In this document: positions 18 to 8,352 of the stretch, one piece after another
Numbering within the stretch: the first letter of the stretch is position 1
Layout: the number at the start of each line of letters is the position of its first letter
Notes under the pieces: generated by a model
The model's database searches: none
Told to the model about the DNA's origin: nothing
What the model saw: only the letters and a program-made list of their open reading frames with translations
Source of the DNA: a virus
Taxonomy: Duplodnaviria > Caudoviricetes
Direction: 5' to 3' (one strand)
Virus record (IMG/VR): IMGVR_UViG_3300033121_001287
Location: 20,525 to 84,524 of that record
Length of the DNA: 64,000 nucleotides
Program-made: the position numbers and the translations under genes

Positions 18-1106
18 GTGTGGGCTCGCGTCGAGTATCCCGATGGTGAGATTCTCACTCTGCGGTCCTTGGGCGGTCCCGGCAGCGGAAACTTCGGGCA
101 CAAGGGACGTCCCGGTGAGGTTGGTGGATCCGCATCGTCCGACGAGATCAACACAAAGCCCGCAAGCACGCCGGGAGATCTCACCAAGGGAAAGAACGAA
201 ACCCCTGAAATCGCGGCGATTCTCGCCAGACCGTCTTCGGCGTACCCCAAGGCTCGCAGCGGCCCGACGATGATGGCTGTGGATCACAGCAACGATCCTG
301 ATGCAGCGCATGATAGGCCGCGTGGGCTCGATACGCTGCAGGAACACACGCTGCCTGACGGATCAATCACTCCCGAACGCCGTGAACTGCACGAAGCCAT
401 CGTCGAGAAGATGCTCTACGGTCACAAACCCCCGTCGGATGCCCCGGTCGCGCATCTGATGGGCGGCGGCGGCGCGAGTGGTAAAAGCGTTATGCAGTCG
501 CAGTTGAGCTTGCCGGAAGATCAGGTTCACATCGACGTCGACATCATTCGTACTCATCTTCCGGAGTGGGACGAAGAACTCGCTCGCGCGAAGGCTGAAA
601 ATCGGAAGGCTGACAACTATCTCGGCAACTACACTCACGAAGAAGCGAGCGTGATTTCCAAGATGGTGATCGACCGGGCCTCGCGCGAGGGCATGAACCT
701 GATGGTGGATGGCGCGGGTGACACCAGCGTTGACAAGGTCGCGCAGAACGTTGCTCGTTACAAGGTGGGCGGCCAGAAGGTGATCGCCGACTACGTCACC
801 GTTGACTACGACCTCGCGTATCAGCGCATGCGTGACCGTGGTGACCGCACCGGACGTTACATTCCGGCTGCTCACCTACGCGCAGTGCATGCAGAGGTCG
901 CACGCGTCTTCCCGGCGGCCGTATCGCGCGGATTGTTCGACGAATTCACGCTGTGGGACACTTCCGCCTCGACGCCGGGCGTGAACGCGAAGCCCGCGAA
1001 GATTGCTTCTGGTCGTGGATCCGACATCACGATTCACGATCAGGAAGCATGGAAGAAGTTCCTCGAACGAGGCAAGGGCATCGCACCGCGTGCGGGCGAA
1101 ATCTAA
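18..1106 (+). CDS. Zeta-toxin-family P-loop kinase domain preceded by LRSL-GGPGSGNFGHKGRPGEVGGS motif; probably 5'-truncated
   Basis: Walker A GGGGASGKS, DVDIIRTHLP, THEEAS, LMVDG and RxRxxxTGRYIP are zeta-like motifs. The frame is open back to position 3, so the true start may lie outside the window. Confidence 0.8.
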   Translation: MWARVEYPDGEILTLRSLGGPGSGNFGHKGRPGEVGGSASSDEINTKPASTPGDLTKGKNETPEIAAILARPSSAYPKARSGPTMMAVDHSNDPDAAHDRPRGLDTLQEHTLPDGSITPERRELHEAIVEKMLYGHKPPSDAPVAHLMGGGGASGKSVMQSQLSLPEDQVHIDVDIIRTHLPEWDEELARAKAENRKADNYLGNYTHEEASVISKMVIDRASREGMNLMVDGAGDTSVDKVAQNVARYKVGGQKVIADYVTVDYDLAYQRMRDRGDRTGRYIPAAHLRAVHAEVARVFPAAVSRGLFDEFTLWDTSASTPGVNAKPAKIASGRGSDITIHDQEAWKKFLERGKGIAPRAGEI

Positions 1107-1117
1107 CCGAGAGGTGA

Positions 1118-1294
1118 ATGACAATGGTGAGTGGTGAAGCAGCATCGCGGATTCTCCTTGAGGTGATGTCCGGAGTTCTCGTGTCCACAAAGGACTCGCC
1201 GGAGGAAGCTGAGTACCGCAAGCAAGTCAAGGTCGAGGTTGATGAGATTCACGCCAAAGGCGGCACCGTGCAGTTGCCGAGGGAATGGCTGTGA
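1118..1294 (+). CDS. 58-aa small protein (not in ORF track), candidate antitoxin/immunity protein
   Basis: ATG at 1118 with GAGGTGA RBS; reads MTMVSGEAASRILLEVMSGVLVSTKDSPEEAEYRKQVKVEVDEIHAKGGTVQLPREWL*; overlaps the next gene start. Confidence 0.7.
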   Translation: MTMVSGEAASRILLEVMSGVLVSTKDSPEEAEYRKQVKVEVDEIHAKGGTVQLPREWL

Positions 1295-1875
1295 CACCGG
1301 AAGAACTTGTATCTGCTCCGGGTGATCCTATCGACGATGCTACCCGCGCGTTGATCGCGCAGATGCTCGACGAAGACGAGCAGCTACGAGCAGCCTACAG
1401 CCCTGATCAGGCTCGCGGAAGCGATGGTAAGTGGACGAAGGGCGGCGGCAGCGCCCCGTCGTCTGACTCCCACAAGTCGGCCCGCATCGCACGCGCGAAA
1501 TCCACGCATATTCCTTCGACGCGATCCTCGCAGAAGGCCGCTGCACGAAGTGAGAAGGTCGTCGCAAACGCTTTGCAAGGGAAGAGCACTGACGATCATG
1601 AGCCAATGGACGTCGTGGTTAACGAGAACGGTCGCGTTATCGGCGTGGAAGTGAAATCAATTCTCGCCGGGAAGAACGACAAGATTACCATGCACCCCGA
1701 TTCACTCGCGCGTAAGGTGGAGTGGGTTAAGGCGCACAAGGCTACCGGGCATACCATCGCGATTGATCTGCGCGGTGGGCAGCGCACGTTCTACTATCGA
1801 AAGGGCTTCGGCTCGTTTCGATTGTCATCCATGCAACGCGTCTCCGTCAAAGAGCTTCGCGAGTTGGTGCGATGA
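1285..1875 (+). CDS. PD-(D/E)xK restriction-endonuclease-fold protein with acidic leader and LRAA-YSPDQARGSDGKWT motif
   Basis: EPMDVVV...IGVEVKS fits the PD-(D/E)xK core; stop overlaps next start. Confidence 0.65.
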   Translation: MAVTPEELVSAPGDPIDDATRALIAQMLDEDEQLRAAYSPDQARGSDGKWTKGGGSAPSSDSHKSARIARAKSTHIPSTRSSQKAAARSEKVVANALQGKSTDDHEPMDVVVNENGRVIGVEVKSILAGKNDKITMHPDSLARKVEWVKAHKATGHTIAIDLRGGQRTFYYRKGFGSFRLSSMQRVSVKELRELVR

Positions 1876-3899
1876 GCTATTACCTGTTCGACTCACGGGG
1901 TTATGTCAGCGACGGCCCGTCGATTCAGGGATGGGAAGACTTCGTTGACTGGATCGCGTCCGAAACTGACATGGATGCGGTGGATCAGTTCATCAAAGAT
2001 GGCTCCGTTGAGGCGCTCGATGAGTTCATCGGTGAACTGGGCACCGTTAACGCACCGGGATCAGTTGAACGCACGCGCAGAATAGTGTTGGCCGCTGCGC
2101 GCAGGGCTCAGGACATCCTGATCCTGTCAAACGGTTTCGAGCACGGCGACCTGCGGGCGGCCGGAGGGGCTGGCAGCGGGAACTTCGGGCATGCGGGCAG
2201 GCCCGGTCAGGTGGGAGGATCGGCACCGGACGTCGCAGCTGAATCGTTCAACGCGGACTTGAGTCAGTTCGGCTTTGTCAATCCGATGAACGAGCGTGAG
2301 TTCGTGATCAACAACGAGGCCGCCGTCGAATTGAGCCGCACGTCGAACGGTATTCGTCTGCACGCGATTCGGTCATTTGCTCCGAAGAGTGGTGCCGGTA
2401 CTCGTGCGATGCAAGTGGTGATGAACGTCGCAGACAAGCACGGGTTTACCATTACTGGAACCGCGAAGCCTTTTGACACCGGTCAGAAGGGAACGCTCAA
2501 GTCTGCACCGCTCAAGCAGTGGTACAAGAAGCTCGGATTTGAAGTGGATAGCCGTGGTGACATGGTTCGGCGGCCACTTCGTACAGCCGGTGGTGCAGGG
2601 AGCGGGAACTTCGGGCATGCGGGAAGGCCGGGTCAGGTAGGTGGATCCTCGCCGGATGGCCGTGAAGCCATGACTCCGAAGGAATTACGACAGCAAGCTA
2701 TTGTGGCGCTCGTTTACAACGAGCTTGCTGCACCGGCGTACCATTCGAAGCAAGACTTCAGTAGAATGAGTCCGGAAGATCGCGTGAAGCTTCTGGATGT
2801 TTCTGGAAAGTTGATTGACAAAGAGCACATGCCTGTTCAGATCCGAACGGATCGGAACAACTACGATAAGAACGGCGTCGGCGCTTACGCTTATTCCGCG
2901 TTCAAGCGTGAATCTGAAGAGAAGAATTGGACTCCGCAGCAAGCCTTTGATGAGGGATTGAAGAGAGGATTGTTCGTCGTTGCGGAAGGTTCGATTAATG
3001 GATACGAACCGATGTCGTCTATCGGTGCTTCCGTATCCCGATTCAATATTCTCGAAGGCATGAACGCTGACGAACGGGACAGATTCGAAGAAGCTTACAT
3101 TCGCACGTTTGCCGATGGAAAGAACCGCAAGGAGCCTATCGACTCTCTTGAGTACCTTATCAAAGGCGGCTGGACTACAAATGAACTAGAGCGCTTTGCG
3201 GATCGCGTGCAGATGGCAGGTGGTAGTAGTTCAAAGCCATACGATGAACGCTCGAACATCGATTCCTTTGCTCGAACATTGGCGTTTTACTCAAAGGATT
3301 ACGATGAGTTTCGTGCGCAGATGTTCAGTGGTTGGGCCTCTGCGAGTAACACGGCCGTCGCGCTCACCACGCGTGGTGTTGCTGCAGAAGCATTTCCATT
3401 GAAGGCTGGTAAATTCTACGAGGCGCATCTTGAAGATTCGTCTTACGGATGGACCTTCAATGGTTACGATCCGCGTGTATCTTTTTCGCCGCGCGCCGTC
3501 GAGAACATGCGCCGTTTGAAGTCTGAAACGGAAGCCTTCTACAAAAAGCAATTGAAGACGGACGATCTGACTACGAAGCCCCTTGTAGCCATGAGGGCCA
3601 TTGGTGGTAAGATCGAAGCTTACACGCCCGCGTCTGTTGAATCGTGGACGACGGATGCTCGCACGGTGGATCGATTCGGGAAGATGATGGGAAAGAACAT
3701 TAAGCGTGATGGTTGGGGAAGCGATACGATTTACACCAGCCTTCAGACTGAAGTAACTTTTGACGATGTACTCTGGAGTTATAAGAGCGCCAAGGGTCAG
3801 CGCGGTTGGCCTGAGGAGAAGCAGCTCAAAGGGAAGAAGGAATTCGTATTGCTCGGTTCACGAGTGAAAAAGGTCGAGGCCAAGCATGTCTACCTTTGA
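1872..3899 (+). CDS. Polyvalent effector polyprotein: acidic leader / GNAT-like domain / large domain ending in ADP-ribosyltransferase-like fold
   Basis: Two copies of LR[AT]A-GGAGSGNFGHAGRPGQVGGS separate the domains. GNAT-like KSGAGTRAM...LKQWYKKLGF; ART-like VAMRAI / SVESWT / KKEFVL. Confidence 0.65.
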   Translation: MSYYLFDSRGYVSDGPSIQGWEDFVDWIASETDMDAVDQFIKDGSVEALDEFIGELGTVNAPGSVERTRRIVLAAARRAQDILILSNGFEHGDLRAAGGAGSGNFGHAGRPGQVGGSAPDVAAESFNADLSQFGFVNPMNEREFVINNEAAVELSRTSNGIRLHAIRSFAPKSGAGTRAMQVVMNVADKHGFTITGTAKPFDTGQKGTLKSAPLKQWYKKLGFEVDSRGDMVRRPLRTAGGAGSGNFGHAGRPGQVGGSSPDGREAMTPKELRQQAIVALVYNELAAPAYHSKQDFSRMSPEDRVKLLDVSGKLIDKEHMPVQIRTDRNNYDKNGVGAYAYSAFKRESEEKNWTPQQAFDEGLKRGLFVVAEGSINGYEPMSSIGASVSRFNILEGMNADERDRFEEAYIRTFADGKNRKEPIDSLEYLIKGGWTTNELERFADRVQMAGGSSSKPYDERSNIDSFARTLAFYSKDYDEFRAQMFSGWASASNTAVALTTRGVAAEAFPLKAGKFYEAHLEDSSYGWTFNGYDPRVSFSPRAVENMRRLKSETEAFYKKQLKTDDLTTKPLVAMRAIGGKIEAYTPASVESWTTDARTVDRFGKMMGKNIKRDGWGSDTIYTSLQTEVTFDDVLWSYKSAKGQRGWPEEKQLKGKKEFVLLGSRVKKVEAKHVYL

Positions 3900-4824
3900 G
3901 TTGCCCATCATCGTTGACGATCAGGAAGCACTTGACAAGCTACGCGCGGAAGGCAAGCTCGCGTGGGCTGGAGATGACGATGCGACCGTCATGCGCTCAC
4001 TCGGCCGCCGACTCCCTCCGAACGAAGTGCATGCTGCGGCCGACGCGCACGAGGCCAAGATGGTGGTGGCCCTGAACTACGCCTTCGCTGCTGCCCGCAA
4101 ATCGATTGACAAAGTTGCTCTCTTGAGCGCCTTGAAACTTGACTCTCGCCCGGCCAAGCGGCGGGCCTTGATCGCGGCCCTTCGGCCGGTCCCGGCCGCC
4201 TTAGAGGCGGCATTGGGCCGCACCGTGCCGCCCGTGTTGGAGCGTTGTTACGGGGCGGGCGGGGCGGCGGGGGTCACGAGGCTCGGGGCACAGGCGCGAA
4301 CGTTGGCGGCTATAGATGACGACGCGCTGCGTACCCTCCGTCGCGAATCGGCACCGGTGTTCGAGATGCAATTCGACGCCAAAAGCGCAGCAGCGATCAA
4401 GTGGGCGCGCAAGCATAGTGGCGAACTCGTACGGCAGATTACCAAGACGACTCGCAAGCGCATTGCGCAGGCCGTCGTACGCGCGTTGGATGGCGGAAGC
4501 CCGCGTGAACTCTACAAGGACATCTTGCAAGTGATCGGCGATAAGGAGCGAGCCGATCTCATTGCAAGGACCGAACTGATGGACGCAGCGAATTCCGGTC
4601 AGCGTGAGGCGTGGGCTCAGGCTGTCGAGGAAGGCTTGCTCACTGGATTGGAAATGCGAGAGTGGATCGCAACGGATGATCCTTCATTGTGCGATCACTG
4701 TGATCGTCTCGATGGGAAGCTCGCAGAGCTTGACGGTGATTACCCCGACGGCGGCGGCATCGGCCCACCACTGCATCCGCGTTGCCGATGCAGTGAAGGC
4801 ATCTCAGCGCGGAGGCGCTCATGA
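3886..4824 (+). CDS. MuF (Phage_Mu_F / SPP1 gp7-like) minor head protein
   Basis: RADLIARTE...REWIAT.D...CDHCDRLDG...PPLHPRCRC signature. Confidence 0.9.
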   Translation: MSTFELPIIVDDQEALDKLRAEGKLAWAGDDDATVMRSLGRRLPPNEVHAAADAHEAKMVVALNYAFAAARKSIDKVALLSALKLDSRPAKRRALIAALRPVPAALEAALGRTVPPVLERCYGAGGAAGVTRLGAQARTLAAIDDDALRTLRRESAPVFEMQFDAKSAAAIKWARKHSGELVRQITKTTRKRIAQAVVRALDGGSPRELYKDILQVIGDKERADLIARTELMDAANSGQREAWAQAVEEGLLTGLEMREWIATDDPSLCDHCDRLDGKLAELDGDYPDGGGIGPPLHPRCRCSEGISARRRS

Positions 4825-5006
4825 GTGAATCGACCCCCCGGAAGCCAGCAACGGCGGTAATCTCTGCCCGTATGCCTGCGGAGTTAGTGGATCGGGTCTA
4901 CCAGACCGCGCGAAGTAAGAAGCAGACCGCATCCGAGTTCGTGCATGAAGCAGTCATGCGGGCGATGTCTAGCAAAGATGTCAAGGACGGCGGAAACCGG
5001 GTGTAA
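4821..5006 (+). CDS. Ribbon-helix-helix (Arc/CopG-like) DNA-binding protein
   Basis: AVISARMPAELVDRVYQTARSKKQTASEFVHEAV has the beta-strand plus two helices pattern. Confidence 0.7.
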   Translation: MSESTPRKPATAVISARMPAELVDRVYQTARSKKQTASEFVHEAVMRAMSSKDVKDGGNRV

Positions 5007-5039
5007 ACAGCCCGGCCTGTTTACAGCCGAGATTTCCGC
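4990..5039. promoter_or_regulatory. Inverted repeat TGTAAACAG-N6-CTGTTTACA with outer arms GCGGAAA/TTTCCGC; possible operator or hairpin
   Basis: Perfect 9-bp arms at 5002-5010 and 5017-5025, read directly. Confidence 0.5.
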
Positions 5040-5115
5040 TTGATTCCGGTGCATGCTAAGAGCGTCGAGGAGGTCCGCCCGGCCAGACCGGGCGGCTTTC
5101 CGTTGCTCAAGGCAC

Positions 5116-6783
5116 ATGGCTGATCCCACTGCTCGCCTCCTGCATCTGTACGGTGCAACCGGACGTGCTCGAACAGAAATGTTCGAAGGACGCGAGCATC
5201 TTGTGGTCCCCGTTATCGCGCTCATGGAGGGTGTGATCCATGCGGTAAACGCAGAGAATCCAGAGTACGTGCCCGCACGCGCATTAGGGGTCGCCCCTCA
5301 ATCGTGGAACGGGCGACCCCTGATGCTTGGACACCCCTCGCGTAACGGGGTGCAGATCAGCGCCAACGACGCTCGCGTGCTTGAGTCGCAGTCATTCGGT
5401 CGCGTGTTCAATACTCGCTTTGACGGCCGCCGACTCCTCATGGACGCCTACATCGATCCTGCCAAGACTGAGCAGATCGGTGGTAGTGAGATGCTTCGCA
5501 GACTTCGTAACAATGAACTCTGCGAGGTGAGCGTCGGAGCCTTTGTCACGACCGACCCACAACCGGGTGAGTACAACGGCAAAAAGTATAAGGCCGTTTG
5601 GAACAGCATCTCGCCTGACCACTTGGCATTTCTTCCGCAGGGTCGCGGAGCATGCAGCGCCGAAATGGGCTGCGGTGCGAACCGCGCAGCGGCTGCGTTT
5701 ATCACTGCCGAAGGTTACCGAGAGGTGACTGAGGAAGAGTTGAAGACGATGGCTGAAGCTCGTGCCGAAGAAGATGCCGAACTCATCACATGGCAATCGA
5801 TGCGTGATCACTGCGACATCCTTGATCGGATTCGCGTTCGCATTCGACAGCTTGTGGACGAGTTGATCAGCGCCGAAGGCACCCACGTTGAAGGCCTCGA
5901 TGAATCGGACGAGACCGTCGTCGAGCGTGCAAGGCTTGAAGCCATCGGGCAACTGGCTTATTCGGCGCAGTCAGTGGTGTCTGGAATCAGCTCGCTGTGC
6001 ATCAAGTCCTTGAGTCCTCATGGTGAAAGCGTACCGTCTCCCGCGTACAACGCCATGCTGGCTGAGTTCGTGAAGGACGTGCCGATTGTCACTCTTGCCG
6101 AGAACGGGGTGAAGCTATGGGAAGCGGTTGCAAACGAAAGCGTTAAGGCGCTCAGCCTGAACAAGCCCGAACAGGAAGTCGAGAACAAGCAGGTGACTGC
6201 GGCAGGTGATGCACCGGCAGCAGCAGACAAGGTCGCGGGATCTGCCTGCGGCTGCAAAGGAGACAAGAACATGACGAAGGAACAGCGTGCGGAGATGATC
6301 GCAACGCTCATCGCCTGCAAGCACAGCGGGTTCACCGAAGGCGATCAGGCGATGCTCGACAACGCGACCGACGACCGTCTCGAAGCCTTCAAGGTGGCGA
6401 GCGAAGCGCGGATGCGGACGGAGACTGACCTCAAGGCAGCGGCGGCCAAGCCCCTGACCGAAGAGGAGTTCATGGCGAATGCGCCGGAGAGCCTGCGTTC
6501 GCTCATCGCGCGCCAGCAGCGGCAGGAGACGGCGTTCAAGGCCGAACTCGTCGCCGAGTTGAAGGCCGCGCAGGAAGAGTACTCGGAGACCGAACTCTCC
6601 GCGATGCCCATCGAGCAGCTGCAGCGCATGGCGCGCGTGGCCCGCATCGAGGTGCAGCCGGACTTCTCGGGTCGCGGACTGCCGCGCGTCCTCTCGTCGA
6701 AGAAGGAAGACGACGTCTACGCCAACCCGCCGGATCCGTACGCCGCCGACATCGAGCGCCGCCGGGCGGCTCAGGGCCGATAA
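5116..6783 (+). CDS. DUF2213-type prohead protease / scaffold fusion
   Basis: EGREHLVVPV..LMEGV, WNGRPLMLGHP, EVSVG, PDHLAFLPQGRGACS followed by a helical scaffold-like C-terminus. Start taken at ATG 5116 rather than 5053. Confidence 0.8.
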   Translation: MADPTARLLHLYGATGRARTEMFEGREHLVVPVIALMEGVIHAVNAENPEYVPARALGVAPQSWNGRPLMLGHPSRNGVQISANDARVLESQSFGRVFNTRFDGRRLLMDAYIDPAKTEQIGGSEMLRRLRNNELCEVSVGAFVTTDPQPGEYNGKKYKAVWNSISPDHLAFLPQGRGACSAEMGCGANRAAAAFITAEGYREVTEEELKTMAEARAEEDAELITWQSMRDHCDILDRIRVRIRQLVDELISAEGTHVEGLDESDETVVERARLEAIGQLAYSAQSVVSGISSLCIKSLSPHGESVPSPAYNAMLAEFVKDVPIVTLAENGVKLWEAVANESVKALSLNKPEQEVENKQVTAAGDAPAAADKVAGSACGCKGDKNMTKEQRAEMIATLIACKHSGFTEGDQAMLDNATDDRLEAFKVASEARMRTETDLKAAAAKPLTEEEFMANAPESLRSLIARQQRQETAFKAELVAELKAAQEEYSETELSAMPIEQLQRMARVARIEVQPDFSGRGLPRVLSSKKEDDVYANPPDPYAADIERRRAAQGR

Positions 6784-6828
6784 ACAGACGGCCCACATCG
6801 CCGTCCCGAAGGAGAGGAGTGAGAGGCA

Positions 6829-7269
6829 ATGGCAATCACACAGAAGGATCCGAACACGATCTGGCTCGGCGGCCCACGCACGGAGATCAACGATCTCGCA
6901 GCGTCGGAAGTCATCAAGCCGGGCCATCTGCTCGTGCGGTTCAATAACAACGGCGTCATCCGACTGAAGAAGCACGCCACGGCTGGCGGCGCTGCAGTCA
7001 AGATCGTCGCGACCGAACAGAGCATGCTCAACAAGGGCGTGGATGACACCTACGCCGCGAACGACCTCGTCGAGGCATCGGAGTTCGGTCCCGGCGCGTC
7101 GGCGTGGATGTTCATCAACTCGGGCCAGAACATCTCGGCCGGAGGTCTGCTCGAATCGGCCGGTGACGGCACGCTCCGCACGCTCGCCTCGGGTGTGGCG
7201 CTCTTCGCCGCGCTCGAAAACAAGAACGCCACCGTCTCGCCGACGCGCATCCGCGTCGAGGCCGTCTAA
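6829..7269 (+). CDS. Capsid decoration/cement protein
   Basis: Lies between scaffold and MCP; ASEVIKPGHL...GQNI..GGLLESAGDGTL pattern; strong RBS GGAGTGAGAGG. Confidence 0.65.
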   Translation: MAITQKDPNTIWLGGPRTEINDLAASEVIKPGHLLVRFNNNGVIRLKKHATAGGAAVKIVATEQSMLNKGVDDTYAANDLVEASEFGPGASAWMFINSGQNISAGGLLESAGDGTLRTLASGVALFAALENKNATVSPTRIRVEAV

Positions 7270-7305
7270 CCTAGACGCCTCGGCGTCATCAGGAGGATCC
7301 GCACC

Positions 7306-8352
7306 ATGTTCGACAACATGCGATTCACGGCAGCCGGTGGCAAGAGCCCCATCGCTGGCGCGTTGCTTCGTGCTCTCGCGGAAACAGGTGACCTGTCGGT
7401 CGCTTCGCTCCGCTCGCTGTCGCCACTCAGCGACAAGGCGCAGGTGATGGTTGACAAGGCCGTCGTCGAGGTGGGGCTGCAGCGCCTCTCCTTCGTCGCC
7501 GACCTGCTCGCCGAAGGCCTGACGTACCCCCTCACCGATCCGCTGTCGGTGACGCAGCTCGAATGGGAATCGGTCAATCAGGTCGGGCACGCGCAGCGCA
7601 CCATGAGCCCTTCGGCTCGCGGTGAGTTCCAGATGCCGAACCGGACGATCTACCGGCTTCCCATCTACCTCACGACTGACGACTTTTCGCTCGGCATCCG
7701 CACGCTCAAGATGTCGCAGCGCGTCGGTCAGCCCCTCGATACGTCGCTCATCAAGCAGGCCACTCGCCGGGTCAACGAGTCCATTGAGGACGCCGCGATC
7801 AACGGAGCCACCACGCTCGACGGTCAGCCGCTCTACGTCGGCGGCTACGCAGCGCCGGGCCTGCTCAACGCACCGAATGCCAACACCGTCTCGCTGACGG
7901 TTGATTGGACCGGCGCGAACACCATCGGCACGACCGGCCCCGGCATGGTCACCGACGTTCTCGCGATGATCGGCGCAGCGCAGGCCGACAAGAAGTACGG
8001 GCCGTACAACCTGTACGTCGGCACGAAGGCCGGGAACCTGATCGAAGGCGACTTCAAGGTCAACACCACCGACACGATCCGGCAGCGACTGGAGCGGATC
8101 GAGGTTGGCGGCCGTCGCCTGCAGATCAAGGTCACCGACATGTTCCCCGGTGCATCGACGGGCAATCAGTGCGCGCTCGTGCAGATGACGAACGACGTCG
8201 TCGAGATCGTCGATGGGCAGCGTCCGACGGTGATCCCGTGGACGAGCAACGACGGCTTCACGCTGTTCTGGCTCGTCATGGCCATCATGGTTCCGCGCTT
8301 CCGCTCGGACTACGACGGCAACAGCGGCGTGGTGCTCGGCGTCAAGTCGTAA
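7306..8352 (+). CDS. Major capsid protein, HK97 fold (encapsulin/Linocin-M18-like family)
   Basis: 348 aa; VDKAVVEVGLQRLSFVADLLAEGL, LPIYLTTDDFSLGIR, PLDTSLIKQATRRVNE, GLLNAP; highly biased codon usage; RBS AGGAGG. Confidence 0.85.
   Translation: MFDNMRFTAAGGKSPIAGALLRALAETGDLSVASLRSLSPLSDKAQVMVDKAVVEVGLQRLSFVADLLAEGLTYPLTDPLSVTQLEWESVNQVGHAQRTMSPSARGEFQMPNRTIYRLPIYLTTDDFSLGIRTLKMSQRVGQPLDTSLIKQATRRVNESIEDAAINGATTLDGQPLYVGGYAAPGLLNAPNANTVSLTVDWTGANTIGTTGPGMVTDVLAMIGAAQADKKYGPYNLYVGTKAGNLIEGDFKVNTTDTIRQRLERIEVGGRRLQIKVTDMFPGASTGNQCALVQMTNDVVEIVDGQRPTVIPWTSNDGFTLFWLVMAIMVPRFRSDYDGNSGVVLGVKS

What the first reader, a model, noticed from the sequence alone, without database searches (positions are those of the whole stretch)
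60..7419. One tetrapeptide, [LM]-R-[SAT]-[LA], recurs at domain boundaries across the whole head module
Seen: it immediately precedes all four tags (4 of 4). It also occurs in MuF (MRSL 3991, LRTL 4327), the scaffold (LRSL 6493, plus related LKAA and VTAA), the decoration protein (LRTL 7174) and the MCP leader (LRAL, and LRSL 7408 just before the conserved capsid core). Inference: this is the recognition site of the DUF2213 maturation protease, linking effector activation to capsid maturation. Caveat: such tetrapeptides are common in high-GC proteomes, so the case rests on position.
Basis: partly seen in the sequence, partly recalled or inferred. Interest (0 to 1): 0.72.

Follow-up and report, generated by a model that had tools for sequence, protein, structure and literature searches.

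The report
Head-protease cut motif shared by capsid and cargo
A short motif (hydrophobic, Arg/Lys, small residue, Leu/Ala) marks the probable cutting sites of this phage's head-maturation protease in the capsid protein, the scaffold and the packaged enzyme cargo, so the cargo is probably released as the capsid matures.

Summary
Genome-wide only 3 of 13 canonical tags carry the strict tetrapeptide, while 11 of 13 carry [RK]-x-[LA].

Comparative evidence is strong:
- In 117 related DUF2213 proteins the scaffold part holds the consensus 849 times. Shuffles give about 100 and the reversed motif 141.
- x-R-A-A ends the protease domain in about 95% of them.
- The Arg at the leader/core junction is at least 90% conserved in 111 aligned diverse capsid proteins.
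- The residue just before the tag tracks the protease class in the same locus: L/A with this DUF2213 type, D with the phage-TLS type (10/10), K with the HK97 type (19/19). The last two match published cut sites.

The DUF2213 domain models as a T4 gp21/assemblin-fold protease. The decoration-protein site and MuF MRSL are not supported. No cleavage has been measured. Another first-stage note on this same genome (e1-5852167) proposed the broader [RK]-x-[LA] site; nothing was found on other DNA.

The parts
60..71 (+). LRSL directly before tag GGPGSGNFGHKGRPGEVGGS (72-131). It lies in the last part of a 1210-aa cargo polyprotein that starts upstream of the window; a Zeta-toxin domain follows.
1384..1395 (+). 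LRAA directly before the second tag type, YSPDQARGSDGKW, in the 196-aa protein.
   Evidence: The same prefix precedes YNPDQPRD-type tags in relatives, for example FRAL in P0018.
2151..2162 (+). LRAA before the first tag (2163-2222) of the 675-aa cargo polyprotein.
2577..2588 (+). LRTA before the second tag (2589-2648) of the 675-aa cargo polyprotein.
3991..4002 (+). MRSL in the MuF N-terminal region. Not alignable in relatives, so its status as a site is open.
4327..4338 (+). LRTL about 45 aa before the Phage_Mu_F domain. Related x-R-x-[LA] appears in only some relatives, so this is a weak candidate.
5116..5679 (+). DUF2213 protease domain, starting from M22 of the 5053 ORF. His73, Ser139 and His169 are invariant. 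The model has the T4 gp21/assemblin fold.
5680..5691 (+). NRAA straight after GACSAEMGCGA. It is the family-wide x-R-A-A at the end of the protease domain and a probable self-release site.
5740..6570 (+). Scaffold part of the protease protein, with seven consensus sites: LKTM 5740, IKSL 6001, VKAL 6142, FKVA 6388, LKAA 6430, LRSL 6493, LKAA 6559.
7174..7185 (+). LRTL in the decoration protein. It lies inside a conserved fold block, positions 3-4 are not kept in relatives, and it is probably not a site.
7366..7377 (+). LRAL in the MCP leader, conserved only among close relatives. A possible second cut within the leader.
7408..7419 (+). LRSL at the junction between the MCP leader and the core. 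The predicted cut is after Leu38, giving a mature protein that starts at SPLSDKAQ.

Best explanation
The tetrapeptide is the local form of the cleavage motif of this phage's DUF2213 prohead protease, a Ser-His-His enzyme with the T4 gp21/herpesvirus-assemblin fold. The family consensus is hydrophobic-[RK]-[ATS]-[LA], read as P4 to P1, with the cut most likely just after the fourth residue.

Proposed action inside the procapsid (all steps inferred):
1. The protease frees itself from its scaffold tail at N-R-A-A (5680).
2. It chops the scaffold at about seven sites.
3. It removes the 38-residue MCP leader at L-R-S-L (7408).
4. It cuts the cargo polyproteins immediately before each Gly-rich tag. 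This releases separate Zeta-toxin, Fic, nuclease-like and other domains, each still carrying a tag at its new N-terminus.

Shown here: the motif's positions, its enrichment, its conservation, the protease fold, and the covariation with protease class. Inferred: that cutting occurs, which bond is cut, and in what order.
For: 1. Protease identity.
- Pfam DUF2213 and PHROG head maturation protease.
- AF2 model with pLDDT 88. The best PDB fold matches are T4 gp21 (E 5e-4, probability 1.00), then the herpesvirus proteases.
- His73, Ser139 and His169 are invariant in 85 homologues.

2. Scaffold.
- In 117 database DUF2213 proteins, the part after the protease domain holds the consensus 849 times. Shuffles give 100 +/- 9 and the reversed motif occurs 141 times.
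- The commonest exact 4-mer is LKAA, 135 times against 7 for AAKL.
- The variable middle alone gives 350 against 52, in 341 distinct contexts.
- Scaffolds of TLS-type DUF2213 proteins, with similar composition, show no enrichment (7 against 4).

3. End of the protease domain: R in 114, A in 94 and A in 111 of 117 proteins, straight after GACSxxMGCG-x-x.

4. MCP.
- A hydrophobic-[RK] pair (Arg in 106, Lys in 2) sits at the leader/core junction in 108 of 143 representatives at 29-64% identity. Leader length varies from 23 to 150 aa.
- R36 is one of only 14 columns that are at least 90% conserved.
- Encapsulins align from model residue 29-37 onwards (Z 20-25).

5. Tags.
- [RK]-x-[LA] precedes 11 of 13 canonical tags in this genome.
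- The same prefix precedes at least three other tag types in related proteins. It is therefore a separate element and not part of one tag.

6. Covariation of the residue before the tag's GG with the protease class found in the same locus.
- L or A in 31 of 38 tags with window-type DUF2213.
- D in 10 of 10 with TLS-type DUF2213.
- K in 19 of 19 with Peptidase_S78 plus an HK97-type MCP.
- Counting each locus once: 10/15, 9/9 and 9/9.

7. Experimental anchors in the other two classes.
- The TLS MCP starts at ASDMGIW by Edman sequencing (PMC11447400), so it is cut after A-K-N-D.
- TLS gp33 is DUF2213 (E 4e-23).
- K[AN]D[AS] occurs 5 times in gp33, once in the MCP exactly at that site, and 0 times in 6198 aa of 22 other TLS proteins.
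- MCPs in the D-type loci keep [RNH]-x-D at the aligned position.
- HK97 is cut at K103/S104 (PMC10275583).
Against: - No cleavage product of this phage or any close relative has been observed.
- The scissile bond is inferred by analogy. A cut after the Arg/Lys is not excluded.
- The covariation classes are also clades, so shared descent contributes to the association.
- In the window-type class, 7 of 38 tags have H, N, Q or M before GG, and 2 of 13 tags in this genome lack the basic residue (PVTL, LEVL).
- Many related proteins have Glu instead of Arg/Lys at the first site after the protease domain (FEAL, LETL).
- TLS-type scaffolds in the metagenomic loci show no overall [KR]-x-D excess (59 against 55). 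The rule that scaffolds are rich in the motif is therefore not universal.
- AF2 models MCP residues 15-37 as helices with fair confidence, so the leader is not obviously disordered.
- Within this one genome, the enrichment is no stronger than the best of 400 similar control patterns.
Confidence: 0.68

Rival explanations
1. The motif is structural and not a cut site. It would be a conserved feature of the MCP N-arm, of helical scaffold repeats and of the tag's own N-terminal flank, kept for folding or for scaffold-coat binding, and nothing is cleaved there.
For: AF2 places the two MCP motifs in helices 15-27 and 32-37. The scaffold blocks around LRSL 6493 are conserved as a whole and not only at the motif. 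The decoration protein keeps LR in a fold block with no sign of processing.
Against: - The motif runs 6- to 20-fold in one direction in scaffolds, in 341 unrelated contexts.
- The same motif appears in four unrelated protein types.
- It precedes four different tag types.
- The residue before the tag switches to D or K exactly where the protease class has a published D or K cut site.
Confidence: 0.14
2. Cuts happen at these places but another activity makes them: a host protease, a peptidase within the cargo, or self-cleavage by the tag itself (for example at its Asn-Phe bond).
For: The tag core GN[FWY]GHxGRPG is almost invariant across phages with three different protease classes, which would suit an intrinsic chemistry. 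Published work on polyvalent proteins proposes self-processing by embedded metallopeptidases (PMC5512222).
Against: - No peptidase family was found in the five cargo proteins scanned.
- A protease-independent cut would not make the flanking residue follow the resident prohead protease class.
- The same motif fills the protease's own scaffold tail and ends its catalytic domain.
Confidence: 0.1
3. Chance: such tetrapeptides are common in Leu/Arg/Ala-rich proteomes of high-GC genomes, and the reader picked the pattern after seeing it.
For: - The background proteome already holds the motif at twice the composition expectation (14 against 6.8).
- LR[SAT][LA] is only second among 400 same-shape patterns for head enrichment.
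- Three of the four tag-linked copies are paralogous repeats.
Against: - The head genes hold it at 7.6 times their own composition expectation, with no reversed copies.
- The signal replicates in 117 related proteins and 143 MCP representatives that were not used to define the motif.
Confidence: 0.03

Closest known systems
T4 gp21 prohead protease with its (L/I)-x-E sites in gp23, the scaffold core and the internal proteins that carry a capsid-targeting sequence
   Same: A protease of the same fold. One short motif would serve the major capsid protein, the scaffold and the packaged, later ejected proteins, so cargo maturation is tied to head maturation. The T4 details rest on established knowledge and on the reviews listed.
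   Different: The family is different (DUF2213, about 13% identity in the fold match). The motif has a basic P3 and Leu/Ala at P1 where T4 has Glu. The conserved peptide lies after the cut and would stay on the product, whereas the T4 targeting sequence lies before the cut and is removed. The cargo consists of multi-domain polyproteins.
Herpesvirus assemblin (peptidase S21), with (V/L/I)-x-A|S release and maturation sites
   Same: Fold matches at ranks 4-50. A Ser-His-His set is invariant. The protease is fused to its scaffold and would release itself at a site ending in Ala just after the catalytic domain. The herpesvirus details rest on established knowledge.
   Different: There is no detectable sequence similarity, Arg/Lys sits at P3, and this is a phage system with added cargo.
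Phage TLS/T1 head maturation protease gp33 (DUF2213) and its processed major head protein
   Same: Same Pfam family and the same gene order of MuF, protease-scaffold, decoration protein and MCP. A basic residue lies two places before the cut (A-K-N-D|A), and the motif is repeated in the scaffold tail. The mature N-terminus is known by Edman sequencing (PMC11447400).
   Different: P1 is Asp, not Leu/Ala. The MCP belongs to another Pfam family (PF09950, against DUF6260 here). TLS itself carries no tagged cargo polyproteins in the regions read.
HK97 gp4 (Peptidase_S78) cutting gp5 at K103/S104
   Same: A prohead protease removes an N-terminal assembly segment of an HK97-fold MCP. Tag-bearing phages of this class have Lys before every tag (19/19), in line with K103|S104 (PMC10275583).
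   Different: The protease family is different, and the scaffold is the MCP delta domain and not a tail on the protease.
Polyvalent proteins of phages (Iyer, Burroughs, Aravind 2017, PMC5512222)
   Same: Multi-domain arrays of Zeta-toxin, Fic, ART-like, MuF and similar domains, encoded beside head genes and thought to be packaged and delivered.
   Different: That work proposes release by embedded Zn-metallopeptidase domains. A text search of the paper found no mention of glycine or of a linker. Here, release by the head protease at sites in front of a conserved tag is indicated.

Membership tests
Pfam PF09979 DUF2213 (phage head maturation protease) | Match to the family profile above the curated cut-off | tested here: met
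   37.3 bits against a cut-off of 22, E 3.6e-9. 600 database homologues at E<=1e-5, many carrying PF09979.
Assemblin/T4 gp21-fold prohead serine proteases | Shared fold of the catalytic domain | tested here: met
   Model pLDDT 88. Foldseek top hit 5jbl (T4 gp21): E 5e-4, probability 1.00, TM 0.45-0.55. Herpesvirus proteases follow.
Assemblin/T4 gp21-fold prohead serine proteases | Conserved catalytic Ser and His residues | tested here: inconclusive
   His73, Ser139 and His169 are invariant in 85 sequences, and TLS gp33 has matching motifs. Their arrangement in space and their superposition on the gp21 catalytic residues could not be read from the tool output.
Assemblin/T4 gp21-fold prohead serine proteases | Proteolytic activity on capsid and scaffold substrates | not testable with these tools
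   Needs protein chemistry. The only experimental anchor is the processed TLS MCP in a DUF2213 phage (PMC11447400).
Prohead-protease cleavage motif (as defined for T4, phiKZ-like phages, HK97) | Motif present at the leader/core junction of the MCP and conserved there | tested here: met
Prohead-protease cleavage motif (as defined for T4, phiKZ-like phages, HK97) | Motif over-represented in scaffold or core proteins that must be degraded | tested here: met
   849 forward, about 100 in shuffles, 141 reversed.
Prohead-protease cleavage motif (as defined for T4, phiKZ-like phages, HK97) | Mature N-termini of virion proteins begin right after the motif | not testable with these tools
   No virion proteomics exists for this uncultured phage.
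HK97-fold major capsid protein (Pfam DUF6260; encapsulin-like) | Profile match and fold | tested here: met
   DUF6260 at 51 bits. Model pLDDT 92. Encapsulins Z 20-25 and phage capsids Z 16-22.

The most novel reading that the evidence does not exclude
A modular loading-and-release system common to many tailed phages. Polyvalent cargo domains are strung together by a unit made of a protease site and a nearly universal Gly-rich tag (GGxGSGN[FWY]GHxGRPGxxGGS, or one of its alternative types). The site's P1 residue co-evolves with whichever prohead protease the phage carries: L/A for this DUF2213 type, D for the T1/TLS type, K for the HK97 type. Capsid maturation then dices the array into tagged effectors ready for ejection. 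The tag may itself be the handle that holds cargo inside the shell, much as targeting peptides do in encapsulins, which are the closest structural relatives of this MCP.
Probability: 0.45. Interest if true: 0.85.

Novelty: new variant of a known kind. Interest (0 to 1): 0.66.

Why it matters
Prohead proteases with one short motif for capsid, scaffold and internal proteins are known for T4 and for phiKZ-like giant phages.

For the large DUF2213 family, the library searches here turned up no described cleavage motif. The family matched 319 isolate records and 600 database proteins at E<=1e-5.

A defined consensus lets anyone predict three things from sequence alone in uncultured phages:
- the mature capsid protein;
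- the scaffold fragments;
- the boundaries of individual packaged effectors, such as toxin-like kinases, Fic and nucleases.

The covariation of the pre-tag residue with protease class gives a directly testable rule for how polyvalent cargo is released. It also offers a way to design cargo that a given phage head will load and cut.

Tried and rejected
- Complex prediction (protease domain with MCP residues 1-60) was requested five times and never answered. No result exists.
- Sequence search of PDB with the protease protein and the MCP found nothing useful.
- tblastn of a tag-bearing segment against isolated phages found no match, possibly because of low-complexity masking.
- A literature search for the tag strings gave 0 papers. 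The 7 papers that mention DUF2213 looked irrelevant from their titles and abstracts; they were not opened.
- The polyvalent-protein paper does not mention glycine or a linker.
- A test for [KR]-x-D excess in the scaffold tails of metagenomic TLS-type proteins gave 59 forward against 55 reversed. The scaffold-enrichment rule therefore did not generalise to that class, apart from TLS itself and two loci.
- A regular expression meant to pull MCP junctions out of each related locus, to look for covariation within the family, was too loose and was dropped.
- The protease class of loci whose tags follow Asn could not be identified from the fragments held.
- My first greedy ORF caller picked antisense ORFs over the head genes. 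It was replaced by a codon-usage-scored set.
- Motifs in the MCP leaders upstream of the junction show only a 2-fold directional excess, so the first MCP site (LRAL) stays a weak candidate.
Full report
**Setting.** The window is bases 20525-84524 of an 84,524-bp virus record. Upstream of the window lie the terminase, a portal fused to a 2H/Acb1-like domain, and three cargo polyproteins. The window starts inside the third polyprotein: 1210 aa, with Fic and Zeta-toxin domains. The genes that follow are listed below.

| Window position | Product |
|---|---|
| 1285-1875 | 196-aa protein |
| 1872-3899 | 675-aa polyprotein |
| 3886-4824 | MuF |
| 4821-5006 | 61-aa CopG/HicB-like ORF |
| 5053-6783 | DUF2213 protease-scaffold protein; the real start is probably M22 at 5116, from where homologues align |
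| 6829-7269 | Decoration protein |
| 7306-8352 | HK97-fold MCP, Pfam DUF6260 |

**The observation.**
- Inside the window, three canonical tags (GG[PKA]GSGNFGH[AK]GRPG[EQ][VI]GGS) and one second-type tag (YSPDQARGSDGKW) all follow the tetrapeptide.
- The whole genome has 13 canonical tags. The four residues before their GG are ERAL, FKAL, PKSL, MRVA, LEVL, ARDL, LRLA, PVTL, FKAL, ARDL, LRSL, LRAA and LRTA.
- Only the three tags in the window fit [LM]R[SAT][LA]. Eleven fit [RK]-x-[LA].
- The portal's C-terminal domain is joined through GRWL followed by a degenerate tag.

**Is it more than chance in this genome?** I used my own codon-usage-scored gene set of 101 ORFs.
- MuF..MCP holds the motif 6 times in 1443 aa. 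Genes outside the head and cargo block hold it 14 times in 21190 aa (Poisson p 5e-4).
- Defining the motif from the tags alone (LR[SAT][LA]) and testing it on MuF..MCP gives 5 against 13 (p 0.002).
- Within-protein shuffles expect 0.8, and none of 400 reached 6. The background runs at twice its own expectation.
- The reversed motif, which has identical composition, occurs 0 times in the head genes and 10 times in the background.
- Against this, LR[SAT][LA] is only second among 400 patterns of the same shape. The single genome is suggestive and no more.

**Relatives settle it.**

*Scaffold.* A database search with the protease domain returned 600 homologues, of which 120 were listed.
- In 117 of them, the region after the protease domain holds [LIVMF][RK][SATV][LAM] 849 times in 49,411 aa. 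The reversed motif occurs 141 times and shuffles give 100 +/- 9.
- With no prior pattern, the commonest 4-mer is LKAA (135 against 7 for AAKL). Then come LKTA (67/4), IKAL (50/2), LRAA (47/5) and LKAL (43/4).
- The poorly conserved middle alone gives 350 against 52, in 341 distinct contexts. The signal is therefore not a few inherited columns.
- TLS-type DUF2213 scaffold tails of similar composition (7 against 4) and this phage's tape measure protein (4 against 5) show nothing.

*End of the protease domain.* Straight after GACSxxMGCG the family has x-x-R-A-A: R in 114, A in 94 and A in 111 of 117 proteins. The window has NRAA at 5680. In one relative this reads ALRAA and is followed directly by a tag (L043).

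*MCP.*
- In 18 related loci the junction reads LR[SA][LA]-[SA]PL.
- In 143 representatives clustered at 50% identity (29-64% identical to the query), a hydrophobic-[RK] pair (Arg in 106, Lys in 2) sits at the same place in 108. The third residue is A/T/S and the fourth N/L/A/M.
- That site follows a leader of 23-150 aa that is otherwise unconserved, and it comes just before the conserved core.
- R36 is one of only 14 columns that are at least 90% conserved in 111 sequences, and the only one in the first 49 residues.
- The AF2 model has pLDDT 92. It aligns with complete encapsulin shell proteins from model residue 29-37 onwards (Z 20-25) and with phage capsids from about residue 55. The first 30-40 residues are therefore an add-on to the common fold.

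**The protease.** The DUF2213 domain model has pLDDT 88. Its best solved-structure matches are T4 gp21 (E 5e-4) and then a run of herpesvirus assemblins. His73, Ser139 and His169 are invariant. This is a head maturation protease of the assemblin fold, as the PHROG labels say.

**The prefix is a separate element from the tag.** The tag core GN[FWY]GHxGRPG is widespread. The residue before the invariant GG differs between phages: K 63, L 38, D 35, N 27, A 13. In window-type DUF2213 proteins the same hydrophobic-[RK]-x-L prefix also precedes other tag types:
- GGPGSG[WPR];
- (S/D)NPEGINQY;
- GDxPGHxFHGNQY;
- YNPDQPRD.

**Covariation with protease class.** Each tag-bearing locus was classed by the protease or MCP found in the same fragment.

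| Protease class in the locus | Loci | Tags | Residue before GG |
|---|---|---|---|
| Window-type DUF2213 | 15 | 38 | L 22, A 9, H 3, N 2, Q 1, M 1 |
| TLS-type DUF2213 | 9 | 10 | D 10 |
| Peptidase_S78 with PF05065 MCP | 9 | 19 | K 19 |

Counting each locus once gives 10/15, 9/9 and 9/9 (chi-square p 3e-12). The classes are also clades.

Two of the classes have published cut sites.
- The HK97 MCP is cut at K103/S104 (PMC10275583).
- The TLS MCP begins at ASDMGIW by Edman sequencing (PMC11447400). In the TLS sequence that N-terminus follows QLRGAKND.
- TLS gp33 is a clear DUF2213 protein (E 4e-23).
- In TLS, K[AN]D[AS] occurs five times in gp33, once in the MCP exactly at the Edman site, and not at all in 6198 aa of 22 other TLS proteins.
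- MCPs in the D-type loci keep [RNH]-x-D at the aligned position, which matches their tag prefixes ([RN]-x-D).

Two conclusions follow. The residue before the tag behaves as P1 of the resident prohead protease. In DUF2213 enzymes a basic residue two places upstream (P3) is part of the site. By the same register, the window's phage would cut after the fourth residue: LRSL|GG, LRAA|GG, NRAA|AA, LKAA|, and LRSL|SPLS in the MCP.

**What is not supported.**
- Decoration LRTL (7174) lies in a conserved block, ESAGDGTLRxx. Its third and fourth residues vary freely (KVFN, RAYT, RKGN), and a cut there would remove a conserved C-terminus.
- MuF MRSL (3991) cannot be aligned to relatives. MuF LRTL (4327) has counterparts in only some of them.
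- MCP LRAL (7366) is conserved only among close relatives. Leaders in general show just a 2-fold directional excess of extra sites.

**Limits.**
- Nothing here shows a cut. The scissile bond and the order of events are inferred.
- Some tags lack the basic residue, and many relatives have Glu at that place in the first site after the protease.
- TLS-type scaffolds from metagenomes do not repeat the TLS pattern.
- The complex prediction could not be run.

**Comparison and novelty.** The logic is that of T4 gp21 with its LxE sites in gp23, the core proteins and the targeted internal proteins, and of assemblin's self-release. What appears new is:
- a consensus for the DUF2213 family;
- release of polyvalent cargo by the head protease, where published work proposes embedded metallopeptidases (PMC5512222);
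- a site-plus-tag unit whose P1 residue follows the protease class.

Another first-stage note on this same genome (e1-5852167) had already proposed the broader [RK]-x-[LA] reading. I tested it here. No note on other DNA was found.

Noticed in passing
genome 4752-7343 (upstream of the window; L146:4752-7343): The portal protein (Phage_portal_3) carries a C-terminal 2H phosphoesterase / Acb1-like (anti-CBASS) domain. A Pro/Asp-rich linker joins the two, followed by GRWL and a degenerate tag, GGPGSGVVGHMTPG. The portal itself may therefore deliver a cleavable counter-defence enzyme.
   Followed up: partly
viral contigs L028-L141: The tag core GN[FWY]GHxGRPG is nearly invariant across phages with at least three different head-protease classes and different MCP families. 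The tag's own function (capsid targeting, a handle, or something else) is unexplained.
   Followed up: partly
database proteins P0001-P0120: Many DUF2213 protease proteins carry a semi-conserved LVTAEG[FY]E[AV]L segment after x-R-A-A. One of several tag types follows it directly: GGPGSGW, NPEGINQY, GHxFHGNQY or YNPDQPRD. The protease-scaffold protein is therefore tagged like the cargo.
   Followed up: no
window 7306-8352: The MCP model is closer to encapsulin shell proteins (Z 20-25, full-length alignment) than to any solved phage capsid protein (Z up to 22 for Sf11). Encapsulins load cargo through short Gly-rich peptides, which may bear on what the tags do.
   Followed up: no
window 5053-5115: The long ORF of the protease gene starts at 5053, and the database gene call starts at Met43 (P0002, 534 aa). 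Homologues align from about residue 22-27, so M22 at 5116 is the likely true start.
   Followed up: partly
loci L029, L044, L104: In a divergent DUF2213 subgroup the tags follow T-H, T-Q or E-N (PATH, PLTH, LTTH, ILTQ, FVEN), and the end of the protease domain lacks R-A-A. This may be a fourth specificity class.
   Followed up: no
window 4821-5006 and 1118-1291: Two small ORFs sit among the head and cargo genes: a 61-aa CopG/HicB-antitoxin-like ORF between MuF and the protease, and a 58-aa ORF just after the Zeta-toxin domain. They could be neutralisers for the toxin-like cargo during assembly.
   Followed up: no
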